Shown one piece after another: positions 57,001-60,000 of a DNA stretch of 64,000 nucleotides. Within the stretch, counting starts at the first letter, position 1. The number at the start of each line of letters is the position of its first letter. Source of the DNA: Clostridium sp. UBA2485 (lineage in GTDB: Bacteria > Bacillota > Clostridia > Clostridiales > Clostridiaceae); contig NZ_DDOV01000084.1 of the NCBI RefSeq assembly GCF_002341865.1, forward strand, positions 15,941 through 79,940, read 5' to 3'. Made by a program: the position numbers.

Positions 57001-60000
57001 AAAAGGGTAACCATGTGGATCATGCAATAATATTTCATTGTTATCCATTTGTAAGGCTAAGACATAATGATCAGATCCACTTAGATATTTATGATTTGGT
57101 AAATATGTTAAGAATCCCATATCTAAAGGTCCTAACATAACCGGATAAATAGATAGAACTTTTAAAAATTCTTCTAAGGGAAGTTCATCTCCATAATTGC
57201 TAACTCTTTCATTTATAGTAAAACCTAATGAATGAAATACTGCATTAATTGCTACATCTGGAGTAGTTATAGAGTTATCAAAAAACAGTAAACCATCTTC
57301 TATAGAAGCACCTAATGAAAATCCTGTAAGCACTTCTATTAAAGCAGGACATACATCTTCATCTATTGTAGATAATAACATAGAAGCGGAGTTAGAATAA
57401 CAATATGAACCATTTCCTCTATATGAAATCATGTAATCAATCCTTTCAATTAATATATTATTTACCTACTAATACAAACACATTTTTATCTGGAGCTTCC
57501 AACACTGCAACATGACCAGATTCAGTTTTAAAAGGTTCTCTAATCCAATCCACATTAGGATTTTTACTTAGGTTATTGTATGTCTCTATAACATCATCTA
57601 CATATATTTCTATATCTGTTACATTGATATCATCATTATTTTGAAGAACAAGCTCTGAGCTATTTTTTTCAGGAAACTTTAATCCAATCAGTATCCAAAG
57701 TTTACCATTATCTAACTTTCTTTCAATTTTCCAATTTTCTTTTAAACCTAAAGTGGTATAAAAATCAACAGAACTTTTGATATCAGAAGTATAAAGGGAT
57801 ACACATTCTAATCTTTTAAACATAATTTAACCTCCTAATTAATAATTTTTTTATTATCAATATAAATGTAACATGTATTTATGACAACTATTGACGTATT
57901 TATTATAAGAAGACTATAATGAGTAAAAAAACATATTCTAGGAGCTAAAATTATGAATAAATCTAAACGATTAGTAGATTTAATAATTGTTATTAATAGA
58001 AAACAAAACTTTACAGCAAAGGAATTAGCAGAGGAATTTGGAGTTTCAATACGTACAATACAAAGAGATTTGAAAGATTTAGAAGATCTAGGGGTTCCCT
58101 TATATACAGAACTTGGAGCTAAAGGTGGATATAGATTATTAAATAAAAAGATATTACCTCCTATAGCATTTACAGAAAATGAAGCTATAGCAATGTTTTT
58201 TGCTTATCAGTCTCTTCAAAATTATGAATCATTACCTTTTGAAGATGATACTATATCTGCATTAAATAAGTTTTATAATTATCTTCCAGATAATACGAAA
58301 GATAAAATTGATGTAATGAGAAACAGAGTTTTATTTTGGATACCAAGAAGAAATGAAGAAAATCCATACTTAAAATTTATTCTAGAAGCAGTAATTCAAA
58401 GAAGTGTTTTATCAATTAAATATGAATCTATGAGTGGAATTAGTTATAGAGAAATTTTACCTATTGGTATATATTCGCATAATGGCTATTGGTACTGCCC
58501 AGCATTTTGTTTAAAGAAACAATCTTACAGATTATTTCGAGTTGACTATATTAAATCAGTAAGTATAAATGAAGATACAACTGTAGAAAAAGACATTAGC
58601 AATATAACTTTAAAAGATTGGTTTGAACCATCAAAGCCTAAAGAAACTGTAAGGCTAAAAGTAAGGCTTTCTAAAAAAGGAGTTAGAAAGTGTCAGCTAG
58701 AACCGTGGATGGATAAAAAAATAAAAATTAATGATGATGGCACTGGGATTATTGATACAACTATAGATATAAGGGACATAGACTATTATTCAGATTTTTT
58801 ATTAGGTGTAGGTACAGATGCAATTGTTGAGTCACCTAAAGAAGTAGTTGATTTAATTTTAGAGAAGATAGATAAAATTAAAAATAATTATAGGTAAAGT
58901 TAAATAATACACAATTCATAATTAAGGTTGAAATTATTTTATCCAATCTAATTTCTTTAATAGATTTTTGTAGCGGCGAACATTGTTCGCCGCTACAGTT
59001 AGATGATTGATAATTAATATGGAATTTAATTTTGACTAGCAATACAATTGCTAGTTTTTCCACAATTCTTCATTGTCAATCGTCAATCCTCAATTGTATA
59101 AGGGTTCCTCTGAGGTGCAGTATGGTTTGGAGCAAAAATTAGCGGATTTATGCTAATACTATGGAGAGACGCAATGTTATTAAAATATTGTTTAATGATG
59201 CAAATATAGTATCATACCATACTGCACCCCAGAGGCTTTATCAATGCACAATTCAAAATTGGCAATTGACAATTATGGTGAAAATTATTTTTAAATAAAA
59301 TAATTTCTGTAAAGGATTTTTTTGACTAGCAATGCAGTTGCTAGTTACCGTAGGGGCGAGCAGTGTTCGCCAGTTCCTTTTGAATGTATCCTATAATTGA
59401 ATATTAATGCAATAATATGTGGCGAACACTGTTCGCCGCTACAGTTAAATAATTCAAAATTTCTCAGTTTCCATTAAGAAATATCCATAATTGTGCATTT
59501 TGCATTATGAATTAAGCTTATATACATTCTTTTTCTTCAGTTATTTTATCTTTTAGATCAATAATATTATTTTGCCACTTACCTTTTTTATAAGTTATAA
59601 ATCCAAGGATATCTGCTAAAAGCCATCCAATAGGTATGGACCACCAAATACCTTTTTGTCCAATATATGAAATAGAAGAAAGAGAGTATGCCATTAGTAC
59701 ACGGGTACCAAGAGATACTATTGTTAATACCACAGACATTGTAAGATTACCTACACCTCTAAAGAAACCATAGAACATAAAAAGAAAGCCAATTAACATA
59801 TAAAATATTCCAACTACAGATATATACTCAACACCAGTTTCTATTACTTTCACCTCACTTGAGTCAACGAATATTTTCATGAGATATTCTGATGACATTA
59901 AAATCAAAATAGATGAAATAATACAGAAAACAATAATTATTTTAATAGCAGATTTTACCCCTTCATGTACTCTTTCTTTTTTACCTGCTCCTACGTTTTG

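What the first reader, a model, noticed from the sequence alone, without database searches (positions are those of the whole stretch)
58913..59517. Mosaic intergenic repeat family (R5) at four sites, built from shuffled modules; the largest array fills 600 bp with no ORF
The same modules recur in different orders at 15521-15830, 47359-47547, 58913-59517 and 62062-62260.

Modules:
1. Arrays of AATTG-NNN-AATT words (AATTGACAATT, AATTGAGAATT, AATTGAAAATT, AATTGTGAATT, AATTGTGCATT).
2. ...AATTA(T/C)GGT(C/T)GAAATTA..TAATTTCTTTAATAGATTTTT, with an internal hairpin.
3. GC-rich palindromes.
4. GGGTTC..CTGAGGTGCAGTATGG(C/T)TTGGA(A/G)CAA.
5. AAATTTCTCAG..CTGAGAAATATCCA(C/T)AATTGTG.ATTTTGCATT.T.AATTAAG.
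6. ACTAGCAAT..ATTGCTAGT.

Other observations:
- The 47.4-kb copy looks like a compact unit of about 190 bp, with inverted word-sets at its two ends, which is MITE-like.
- All four sites lie at gene ends, never inside genes.
- No RAYT, IS200 or other transposase is in the window.
- Whether this family is a non-autonomous mobile element, a set of protein-binding arrays or structured RNAs cannot be decided from here. I cannot tell whether it has been formally described.
Basis: seen in the sequence. Interest (0 to 1): 0.65.

Follow-up and report, generated by a model that had tools for sequence, protein, structure and literature searches.

The report
Mosaic intergenic repeat clusters in Clostridium
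The 600-bp gene-free stretch is a pile-up of several kinds of small hairpin-forming repeats (miniature transposon-like units plus REP-type palindromes). They litter the spaces between genes in Clostridium argentinense and its relatives and are reshuffled between closely related strains; the kind of element is known, but this family appears undescribed.

Summary
The named modules recur at all four sites, where shuffled sequence gives none. I found more copies at 2803-2826, 3781-3851 and 55470-55700, and outer ends at 15470-15503 and 47283-47345.

The window is about 96.5% identical to Clostridium argentinense CDC 2741. The family is multi-copy in C. argentinense and Clostridium sp. UBA6640, and is present in C. 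faecium and strain Marseille-QA1073.

The modules follow a grammar rather than being freely shuffled:
- an outer 30-bp inverted repeat;
- an array of 8-nt words;
- hairpin H1;
- an exchangeable central cassette (terminator hairpin H2, H6 or H7, a GTAG-headed REP palindrome, or a 140-165-bp palindromic element);
- hairpin H5;
- an inverted word array.

All 89 islands examined are intergenic. Orthologous spacers differ sharply between near-identical strains (192 to 865 bp at 58.9 kb). Three elements sit inside terminator-like hairpins.

The REP 22-mer also occurs in many unrelated metagenomic contigs, some carrying RayT-like transposase genes. No Rfam family, plasmid, phage or paper matches the family.

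Best reading: BIME- or BOX/RUP/SPRITE-like clusters of non-autonomous repeats that also supply terminators. The mobilising enzyme, target duplication and function are not shown. This is a new member of a known kind, of moderate interest.

The parts
58906..58927 (+). Site C: left word array (AATACACAATTCATAATTAAGG, CACAATT flavour). It starts 9 nt after the stop codon of the WYL-regulator gene.
   Evidence: (D14)
58928..58969 (+). Site C: H1 hairpin module plus the TTTAATAGATTTTT tail. This copy is degenerate, and 29 bp of it are missing in CDC 2741 and in Marseille-QA1073.
   Evidence: (D7)
58970..58996 (.). REP-type palindrome GTAGCGGCGAACATTGTTCGCCGCTAC, with a GTAG head on both strands.
59035..59059 (+). 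H2 hairpin ACTAGCAATACAATTGCTAGT followed by TTTT. It has the form of an intrinsic terminator.
59060..59101 (-). Inverted word array of the GACAATT flavour. It matches the right arm of the 47.4-kb unit at 90% identity.
59102..59235 (.). Palindromic element ('T4') whose ends, CCTCTGAGGTGCAGTATGGT and ACCATACTGCACCCCAGAGG, pair with each other. The segment 59064-59235 is absent from CDC 2741.
   Evidence: (fold z = -5.3)
59241..59278 (+). Second word array of the GACAATT flavour, ending in ATTATGG.
   Evidence: (D2)
59279..59322 (+). Second H1 hairpin module.
59325..59345 (+). Second H2 hairpin, ACTAGCAATGCAGTTGCTAGT.
59350..59442 (.). REPIN-like doublet: two GTAG-headed REP palindromes in inverted orientation (59350-59371 and 59421-59442), 49 bp apart. 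CDC 2741 has the H6 hairpin cassette at this position instead.
   Evidence: (I7)
59457..59487 (+). H5 hairpin module (AAATTTCTCAG..AAGAAATATCC). The stem is partly broken in this copy.
   Evidence: (D5)
59488..59516 (-). Right inverted word array (ATAATTGTGCATTTTGCATTATGAATTAAG). It ends 1 nt before the stop codon of the MATE gene on the minus strand.
   Evidence: (D8)
62062..62109 (+). Site D: three tandem 16-nt units (TCAATGGAGAACTTCN) that run into the word array. One unit is missing in a related strain.
   Evidence: 16 nt left out at 62063
62096..62176 (+). Site D: word array plus H1 hairpin.
   Evidence: (D2)
62177..62206 (+). Site D: REP palindrome GTAGCGGCGAACAGTGTTCGCC followed by a T run. 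It has terminator form and lies downstream of the LysR-type gene.
62221..62270 (+). Site D: H5 hairpin and a decayed right word array.
   Evidence: (D5)
47283..47345 (+). Site B: outer end of the element (M0; ATATAGATAAACTACCTTAAAAATTAAT..). This is the 30-bp terminal inverted repeat of full-length copies.
47359..47440 (+). Site B: word array plus H1 hairpin.
47441..47509 (.). Site B: central H7 cassette. It includes a terminator-form hairpin on the minus strand (47482-47503), downstream of the AraC-type gene.
47510..47548 (-). Site B: right inverted word array.
15470..15503 (+). Site A: M0-like outer end. It is conserved in three strains whose inner modules all differ.
15518..15547 (-). Site A: inverted word array.
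   Evidence: (D8)
15550..15616 (+). Site A: H4 hairpin (CACCTCAGGGGAAC..GGTTCTCCTGAGGTG) and the left end of a T4-type element.
15728..15787 (+). Site A: H5 hairpin plus right inverted word array.
   Evidence: (D5)
2803..2826 (.). Lone H2-type hairpin flanked by A and T runs, downstream of a methyltransferase gene.
   Evidence: (I8)
3781..3851 (+). Sister sub-family: AATTAAGA-type words, then ATTATGG, then hairpin H8 (AAAACTCCA..TGGAGTTTT).
   Evidence: (D11)
55470..55700 (+). Sister sub-family, a full unit of about 230 bp. It is the same kind as the insertion in a terminator loop in Clostridium sp. UBA6640.

Best explanation
The 58.9-kb stretch and the other sites are clusters of several families of small, non-coding, hairpin-rich repeats. 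These repeats have accumulated next to and inside one another in intergenic DNA of a Clostridium argentinense-group genome.

Three kinds of repeat are present:
1. A MITE-like unit of about 190-350 bp. Its layout is an outer 30-bp terminal inverted repeat (TATAGATAAACTACYTTAAAATTTAAT); an array of 8-nt words; hairpin H1; an exchangeable central hairpin cassette; hairpin H5; and an inverted word array.
2. REP-type palindromes, GTAG(C/G)GGCGAACAGTGTTCGCC, found singly or as inverted REPIN-like doublets.
3. A 140-165-bp palindromic element.

Shown:
- The family is multi-copy and dispersed.
- It is strictly intergenic.
- The hairpins are conserved, with compensatory changes.
- Content turns over rapidly at orthologous sites.
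- Two elements lie within pre-existing terminator hairpins, and a third lies between short inverted flanks that look like a hairpin stem.

Inferred:
- New copies arise partly by transposition in trans into A+T-rich hairpin loops. Because each element brings new hairpins, this would make arrays self-nesting.
- The enzyme is an unidentified transposase, with a RayT-like Y1 enzyme the candidate for the REPs.
- Copies are also remodelled by recombination or gene conversion between copies. This would swap the central cassette, make tandem copy-number changes, and delete or insert neighbouring genes.
- Their main effect on the cell is to provide transcription terminators or RNA-stabilising hairpins at gene ends.
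For: Copy number and distribution:
- The exact 20-mer of H1 is multi-copy only in C. argentinense CDC 2741 (15 loci fetched) and Clostridium sp. UBA6640 (19 loci fetched), with 2 loci in C. faecium. Other genomes gave single chance hits.
- An nhmmer search found 69 word-array plus H1 copies in about 350 kb.
- Contig depth over the repeats is about 10-25 times that of the flanks in four runs, and contigs break at the repeats.

Grammar of the units. Full-length copies with 30-bp terminal inverted repeats are L062 and L015 (orthologous), L090, L043 and L025.

Structure:
- Units fold far better than shuffled sequence (z = -7.6, -7.3 and -5.3).
- In H1, 96% of cells are paired, and one pair covaries (UA 21, GC 17, AU 4).
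- H5 has inner C-G and T-A pair variants and a hypervariable loop.
- The REP has the variant GGAGAAC..GTTCTCC, which keeps the palindrome.

Location: 0 of 89 islands lie in ORFs of 100 aa or more.

Turnover at orthologous sites:
- The WYL-MATE spacer is 620 bp in the window, 360 bp in CDC 2741 and 192 bp in Marseille-QA1073. It is 334, 600 and 865 bp in three assemblies that encode the identical MATE protein; those three differ by 0, 1 or 2 extra copies of a 266-bp unit.
- The only three large indels across 24.7 kb between the window and CDC 2741 all lie at repeat sites.
- Site A has three entirely different module sets in strains with an identical neighbouring protein and nearly identical flanks.

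Hairpin targets:
- L082 6425-6699 lies in the loop of the terminator that is intact at window 27403-27447.
- The L121 insertion lies in the YobF_C/Ham1 terminator, which is intact in the window and in L107 and L120.
- The L062/L015 element is flanked by GGCAT...ATGCC.

Terminator form: terminator-like sites are more frequent than in shuffles, 2 against 0.3 and 1 against 0.1.

REP link to RayT: the exact 22-mer is in at least 120 metagenomic contigs, and 5 of them carry RayT-like genes.
Against: - No transposase with matching ends was found. An IS982-like element in L106 has unrelated ends.
- No RayT or IS200-type gene was found in the roughly 400 kb of C. argentinense-group DNA held. The whole genome could not be scanned.
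- No clean target-site duplication was seen. The L082 junctions fit a TA or ATA duplication only if one substitution is assumed. The L121 case is an insertion combined with a replacement.
- The 47.4-kb unit is half present in CDC 2741. The 266-bp copy-number change looks like unequal recombination. Recombination alone could therefore explain much of the polymorphism.
- Two C. argentinense strains (L119 and L120) have identical arrays, so turnover is not seen at the shortest timescale.
- Terminator function is inferred from sequence form only. The RNA data are too thin.
- Site A lies in a promoter region, not at a 3' end.
Confidence: 0.6

Rival explanations
1. The units are genes for, or parts of, structured RNAs (small RNAs, or cis-acting 5' or 3' UTR elements). 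Their spread reflects selection for an RNA function.
For: - Folds are very stable.
- Hairpins are kept through compensatory changes.
- Metatranscriptome contigs end in or contain word-array and H1 sequence. One contig reads from holA into the element.
- The TTGACA words lie 17-18 nt before TTTAAT, which could act as a promoter (read from the sequence).
Against: - No Rfam family reaches threshold, and the best hits are generic hairpins.
- Promoter-like sites are no more frequent than in shuffles.
- Units occur in both orientations relative to neighbouring genes.
- Orthologous sites carry different modules.
- There is no excess of G-U over A-C mismatches in H1 (6 against 14).
- DNA contamination of the RNA runs cannot be excluded.
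Confidence: 0.12
2. The repeats are not mobile at all. They spread and vary only by homologous or illegitimate recombination: segmental duplication, gene conversion and unequal crossing-over.
For: - No target duplication and no transposase were found.
- Indel end-points lie inside repeats.
- A 266-bp tandem unit varies in copy number.
- Central cassettes are swapped between constant arms.
- A 16-kb difference from Marseille-QA1073 is bounded by duplicated segments.
Against: - There are 89 islands on dozens of contigs in at least four species or strains.
- Elements sit inside otherwise conserved single-copy terminator hairpins.
- Full-length copies have 30-bp terminal inverted repeats.
- The same REP 22-mer is found in genomes of 31-57% G+C.
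Confidence: 0.18
3. The word arrays and hairpins are binding-site arrays for a host DNA-binding protein, such as a nucleoid protein, a regulator or DnaA. The elements are kept for chromosome organisation or regulation.
For: - The arrays are built of 8-nt periodic words (AATTGACA, AATTCACA, AATGAAGA) in 2-6 copies.
- A DnaA-box-like TATCCACA sits next to H5 in most copies (the box consensus is from general knowledge).
- REP and BIME elements of E. coli bind IHF and gyrase (Nunvar 2010, PMC2817692, abstract).
Against: - No protein is identified.
- The number and flavour of words vary freely.
- The GACAATT flavour lacks the CACA core.
- The sites have no consistent relation to promoters.
Confidence: 0.1

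Closest known systems
REP / BIME / REPIN elements with RayT (RAYT, TnpA-REP) of proteobacteria
   Same: - The GC-rich module is an imperfect palindrome of about 22 nt with a GTAG head in 36 of 36 copies.
- It is extragenic and multi-copy.
- It forms inverted doublets.
- It is embedded in mosaics with other conserved motifs, as in BIMEs.
- The identical 22-mer is linked to RayT-like genes in metagenomic contigs.
   Different: - The host is a low-G+C Gram-positive.
- Two surveys read here (Di Nocera 2013, PMC3733652; Quentin 2018, PMC6006769) do not report GTAG-REPs or class 2 (REP-associated) enzymes in Clostridia in the passages searched.
- No RayT gene has yet been shown in this genome.
- The partner motifs (word arrays, H1, H5) have no counterpart in E. 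coli BIMEs.
BOX, RUP and SPRITE repeats of Streptococcus pneumoniae
   Same: - Small non-coding repeats in a Firmicute.
- Modular build, comparable to boxA-B-C.
- One member has terminator form (SPRITE, comparable to H2, H6 and H7).
- Copies are bunched together and inserted into one another in intergenic DNA (MITE review PMC10969869, section 3.3).
   Different: - No sequence similarity was found.
- The ends differ, and no IS relative is known here, whereas RUP is related to IS630-Spn1 (general knowledge).
- The arrays here also include REP-type palindromes.
bcr1 and related interspersed repeats of the Bacillus cereus group; Correia/NEMIS of Neisseria
   Same: - MITE-like units of 100-300 bp with inverted ends.
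- Stable folds, intergenic location and co-transcription with neighbouring genes.
   Different: - Those have defined target duplications (TTTAT for bcr1, TA for Correia; general knowledge). None is established here.
- Those lack the nested arrays of 8-nt words and the exchangeable central cassettes.
IS1397 / ISKpn1, and the IS110-type elements that insert into REP loops
   Same: They show a preference for inserting into the loop of an existing palindrome, which would explain clustering and nesting.
   Different: Those are autonomous insertion sequences with a transposase. Here only non-coding units are seen, and the preference rests on three cases.

Membership tests
REP (GTAG-tagged repetitive extragenic palindromes) | Short (20-40 nt) imperfect palindrome, G+C-rich relative to the genome | tested here: met
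   The 17-nt core GGCGAACAGTGTTCGCC plus its head sits in a genome of 27% G+C.
REP (GTAG-tagged repetitive extragenic palindromes) | Conserved GTAG tetranucleotide at one end of the palindrome | tested here: met
   All 36 copies collected have GTAG(C/G) on one side, and some have it on both.
REP (GTAG-tagged repetitive extragenic palindromes) | High copy number, extragenic | tested here: inconclusive
   There are 4 copies in the 64-kb window and 36 in about 400 kb of related DNA, none in ORFs. The whole-genome count was not obtainable.
REP (GTAG-tagged repetitive extragenic palindromes) | Inverted doublets (REPIN/BIME arrangement) | tested here: met
   Doublets are at window 59350-59442, at L107 5449/5510, and at the start of the reverse-complemented L106 1-560 segment.
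REP (GTAG-tagged repetitive extragenic palindromes) | A RayT/RAYT gene in the same genome, associated with the same REP | not testable with these tools
RayT-like genes linked to the identical 22-mer exist in other organisms.
MITE (miniature inverted-repeat transposable element) | Small non-coding unit with terminal inverted repeats | tested here: met
   Units are 190-350 bp, with 30-bp outer inverted repeats in L062, L015, L090, L043 and L025 and inner inverted word arrays.
MITE (miniature inverted-repeat transposable element) | Target-site duplication of constant length | tested here: inconclusive
   The L082 junctions are compatible with TA or ATA only if one substitution is assumed. The L121 case is an insertion plus a replacement.
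MITE (miniature inverted-repeat transposable element) | Occupied and empty sites among relatives | tested here: met
   
MITE (miniature inverted-repeat transposable element) | An autonomous IS with the same ends | tested here: not met
   No pair of outer ends encloses an ORF in the DNA held. The IS982-like element in L106 has different ends. The search covered under 10% of a genome.
Any Rfam RNA family | Covariance-model score at or above the gathering threshold | tested here: not met
   Only tRNA-Trp reached threshold in the window. E-value scans of sites A and C, of a canonical unit and of the 865-bp array gave only weak generic hairpin hits.
Intrinsic (Rho-independent) terminator | G+C-containing hairpin followed by a T run, placed downstream of a gene | tested here: met
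   The form is met by H2 at 59035-59059, the REP plus T run at 62177-62206, H7 at 47482-47503 on the minus strand, and the REP doublet. Termination itself was not tested.

The most novel reading that the evidence does not exclude
The A+T-rich hairpin units and the GTAG-REPs may form one hairpin-seeking system. New copies would be inserted as single strands into the loops of existing terminator or REP hairpins by a RayT-like Y1 enzyme, which would build self-nesting arrays.

The Clostridia-wide RayT-like family that goes with this REP carries an inverted pair of its own REP inside its coding sequence, flanking the HUH catalytic motif. The two encoded peptides, NVGANSVRP and GRTLFAPT, co-vary as reverse-complement translations across 14 family members. 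This would mean the gene acts as the master copy, or regulates itself through its own target.
Probability: 0.15. Interest if true: 0.65.

Novelty: new member of a known kind. Interest (0 to 1): 0.4.

Why it matters
- The family appears not to be catalogued. I found it in no Rfam family, no plasmid or phage record, and no paper in the library.
- It breaks short-read assemblies of this species group and marks the points where close strains differ. All three large indels in 24.7 kb lie at repeat sites, and two of them gain or lose genes.
- It could serve as a strain-typing marker and as a source of compact natural terminators for clostridial genetics.
- If the REP module is served by a RayT-like enzyme, it would give a Gram-positive REP/RayT system to compare with the proteobacterial ones. 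It would also offer a test case for how mosaic (BIME-like) arrays are built.

Tried and rejected
- Rfam at gathering threshold on the whole window, and at E-value threshold on sites A and C, a canonical unit and the 865-bp array. Nothing meaningful.
- BLAST of a canonical unit against PLSDB plasmids, and of site C against phage records. No match.
- Literature searches for Fusobacterium or Clostridium MITE and REP descriptions, and for the exact module sequences. Nothing. My first guess, that the host was Fusobacterium (from the 27% G+C), was wrong.
- Search for an autonomous element. The two word arrays 1.9 kb apart in L058 flank rpsT and gpr, not a transposase. The IS982-like element in L106 has unrelated ends.
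- tblastn with recalled RayT and IS200 sequences, and with two metagenomic RayT-like proteins, found nothing in C. argentinense-group DNA.
- RNA evidence. One soil metatranscriptome had almost no coverage. Three others show only that copies are present in transcript contigs.
- Promoter scan. Not enriched over shuffles.
- G-U against A-C mismatch asymmetry, used to separate RNA-level from DNA-level selection. Too few mismatches for H1, and my quick scan for H2, H5 and H6 was unreliable.
- Bias in the arrangement of flanking genes. Divergent pairs are 8% against 13% background and convergent pairs 18% against 14%, which is too weak to use.
- A fuzzy-regex census timed out.
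Full report
**Observation.**
- The strongest pairwise matches are 81 nt at 90% identity (47359-47439 with 62096-62176), 42 nt at 98% (58950-58991 with 62157-62198) and 60 nt at 85% (15728-15787 with 59457-59516). 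Two further matches are 39 nt at 90% (47510-47548 with 59064-59102) and 32 nt at 91% (15581-15612 with 59100-59131).
- Dinucleotide-preserving shuffles of the window give no match to either the H1 pattern or the GC palindrome.
- The stretch 58898-59517 holds no ORF of 100 aa or more. It lies between the convergent 3' ends of a WYL-type regulator gene and a MATE transporter gene.
- A coverage map of short repeats adds copies at 2803-2826, 3781-3848 and 55480-55699.

**Host.**
- The window has about 27% G+C.
- It is 96.4-97.0% identical over 24.7 kb to Clostridium argentinense CDC 2741 (AYSO01000019.1) and to a second strain.
- It is 92-95% identical to Clostridium sp. Marseille-QA1073 and 92-94% identical to Clostridium sp. 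UBA6640.
Multi-copy hits occurred only in C. argentinense (15 loci) and UBA6640 (19 loci), with 2 loci in C. faecium. All other hits were single matches, mostly in A+T-rich genomes.

**Anatomy.** I mapped twelve module consensus sequences on the window and 36 related loci. This shows a grammar rather than free shuffling. A full unit reads, in order:
- An outer end (M0), TATAGATAAACTACYTTAAAATTTAAT. It recurs inverted at the far end and so forms a 30-bp terminal inverted repeat.
- An array of two to six 8-nt words, in three flavours: AATTCACA, AATTGACA or AATGAAGA.
- The sequence ATTAAGG or ATTATGG.
- Hairpin H1 (GAAATTAnTTTT..AAAAnTAATTTC) with the tail TTTAATAGATTTTTT.
- One or more central cassettes.
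- Hairpin H5 (AAATTTCTCAGn..nCTGAGAAAT) followed by ATCCACAATTGTG.
- An inverted word array.

The central cassettes seen are:
- H2 (ACTAGCAAT..ATTGCTAGT plus a T run);
- H6 (AAGTTAC..GTAACTT);
- H7;
- the GTAG-headed palindrome;
- H4 with the 140-165-bp palindromic element here called T4.

**Layout of site C.** Site C is two such units in series:
- The first runs 58906-59059.
- It is followed by an inverted word array (59060-59101) and a T4 element (59102-59235).
- The second unit starts at 59241. Its central cassette is a REPIN-like doublet (59350-59442).
- It closes with H5 and an inverted word array at 59457-59516.

**Structure.**
- Whole units fold much better than shuffled sequence (z = -7.6, -7.3 and -5.3). 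The inverted word arrays close a four-hairpin junction.
- In 52 aligned H1 copies, 96% of cells are paired, and one pair covaries (UA 21, GC 17, AU 4).
- H5 keeps its stem through C-G and T-A variants while its loop is hypervariable.
- The palindrome has a sub-family, GGAGAAC..GTTCTCC, with a compensating double change.
- These data show selection or conversion for the hairpins. They do not say whether the hairpins act as DNA or as RNA. The G-U against A-C count in H1 (6 against 14) gives no sign of RNA-strand selection.

**Distribution relative to genes.**
- None of 89 islands lies inside an ORF of 100 aa or more.
- Terminator-form hairpins are enriched over shuffles.
- They are oriented sensibly in the window. 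The unit at 62062 begins at the stop codon of the LysR-type gene. The unit at 58906 begins 9 nt after the WYL stop codon. H7 at 47482-47503 faces the AraC-type gene.
- Site A, however, lies between divergent promoters.

1. The WYL-MATE spacer is 620 bp in the window, 360 bp in CDC 2741 and 192 bp in Marseille-QA1073. In three assemblies that encode the identical MATE protein it is 334, 600 and 865 bp. Those three differ by 0, 1 or 2 extra copies of a 266-bp unit made of a T4 element plus a terminator.
2. Against CDC 2741, the window has 29 bp more of H1. It has an extra 172 bp (inverted word array plus T4). It has a REPIN doublet where CDC 2741 has the H6 cassette.
3. Over 24.7 kb, the only large indels between the window and CDC 2741 are three:
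   - 46683-47464, carrying a GNAT gene and the left half of the site B unit;
   - 48873-51766, three ECF-transporter genes where CDC 2741 has one 197-bp canonical unit;
   - 59064-59446.
4. At site A, three strains with an identical neighbouring permease protein have nearly identical flanks. These flanks include the M0-like end and the tRNA-Trp promoter. The three strains nevertheless carry three unrelated module sets.
5. UBA6640 carries a 275-bp unit in the loop of the terminator that is intact at window 27403-27447.
6. Marseille-QA1073 carries a unit in the YobF_C/Ham1 terminator. That terminator is intact in the window, in a C. faecium-like assembly and in CDC 2741.
7. The orthologous full-length element of L062 and L015 is flanked by GGCAT...ATGCC.

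Turnover is therefore rapid, and terminator hairpins recur as the place of insertion. No constant target duplication could be read, and several differences look like recombination between copies.

**The GC palindrome.**
- All 36 copies have a GTAG head. This is the signature of GTAG-tagged REPs (Di Nocera 2013, PMC3733652; Nunvar 2010, PMC2817692).
- The exact 22-mer occurs in at least 120 metagenomic contigs of 31-57% G+C. These contigs lack the A+T-rich modules.
- Five of these contigs carry a RayT-like gene. It matches NCBIfam NF047646 at 55-60 bits, below the cut-off of 80, and matches Pfam PF01797 weakly.
- Relatives carry source names such as Ruminococcus, Oscillospiraceae, Clostridiales and Clostridiaceae, and some are named RayT by JGI.
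- No such gene was found in the C. argentinense-group DNA held. The whole genome could not be searched.

**What it is not.** No Rfam family, plasmid record, phage record or paper in the library matches the family. Forty ORFs of the window scanned with Pfam gave no transposase or integrase domain.

**Verdict.**
- The finding is real and more extensive than reported.
- It is best read as BIME-like or BOX/RUP/SPRITE-like clusters of non-autonomous repeats of at least three kinds. These are built by insertion into hairpins and remodelled by recombination, and they probably serve as terminators.
- The kind of element is known, and the family appears undescribed.
- The enzyme, the insertion mechanism and the function remain inferences.

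Noticed in passing
L194:5042-5581, L124:10348-10827, L199:9810-10289, L186:1338-1850, L150:11934-12494 (metagenomic contigs): RayT-like genes carry two copies of their own REP, in inverted orientation, inside the coding sequence on either side of the HUH motif. The REPs encode NVGANSVRP and GRTLFAPT. In 14 family members the two peptides co-vary as reverse-complement translations: GAHSVRP with GRTLCAP, GADIIRP with GRIISAP, and GANCVRP with GRTQFAP. I do not recall this being described for RAYTs.
   Followed up: partly
window 48873-51766: A three-gene ECF-type transporter operon (Trep_Strep S component, CbiQ, double ATPase) is present here. In C. argentinense CDC 2741 it is replaced by a single 197-bp repeat unit that sits directly after the operon's ribosome-binding site.
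   Followed up: partly
window 46683-47464, and 34226-34394: A 782-bp segment is absent from CDC 2741. It carries a 159-aa GNAT acetyltransferase gene and half a repeat unit. The terminator and the 3' end of this gene are duplicated at 34226-34394 (91-97% identity).
   Followed up: partly
window about 39600-55700: About 16 kb is absent from Clostridium sp. Marseille-QA1073 (L121). The junction lies at duplicated segments (33696-34399, 39157-39456, 46636-46982), which looks like deletion or insertion by recombination between duplicates.
   Followed up: no
window 1-9000: A run of small, same-strand genes for GNAT acetyltransferases, nucleotidyltransferases (one AadA-like) and an HD protein. Two of the spacers share a conserved 73-nt sequence (4654-4726 and 5291-5363, 78% identical). 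It resembles a cassette array or a repeated promoter or leader.
   Followed up: no
L106:6730-7880 (= L121:12730-13880): An IS982-like insertion sequence (313-aa DDE_Tnp_1 / DDE_Tnp_1_3 transposase, ends CYYGTTGTGCTA) interrupts the glyoxalase-family gene in Marseille-QA1073. That gene is intact in the window at 57458-57823.
   Followed up: partly
window 20609-20784: This 176-bp spacer upstream of an HD-domain gene is a hot spot. It is plain in the window. Strains L242 and L245 have a 155-aa PNPOx-like gene there. UBA6640 (L082 1-260) has a full repeat unit there.
   Followed up: partly
window 6600-6685, 7767-7825, 56437-56506: A separate small family of terminator hairpins built on GGCATCTGAAATAAAATAA...TTATTTTATTTCAGATGCC recurs at several gene ends. 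One of them is the insertion target in Marseille-QA1073.
   Followed up: partly
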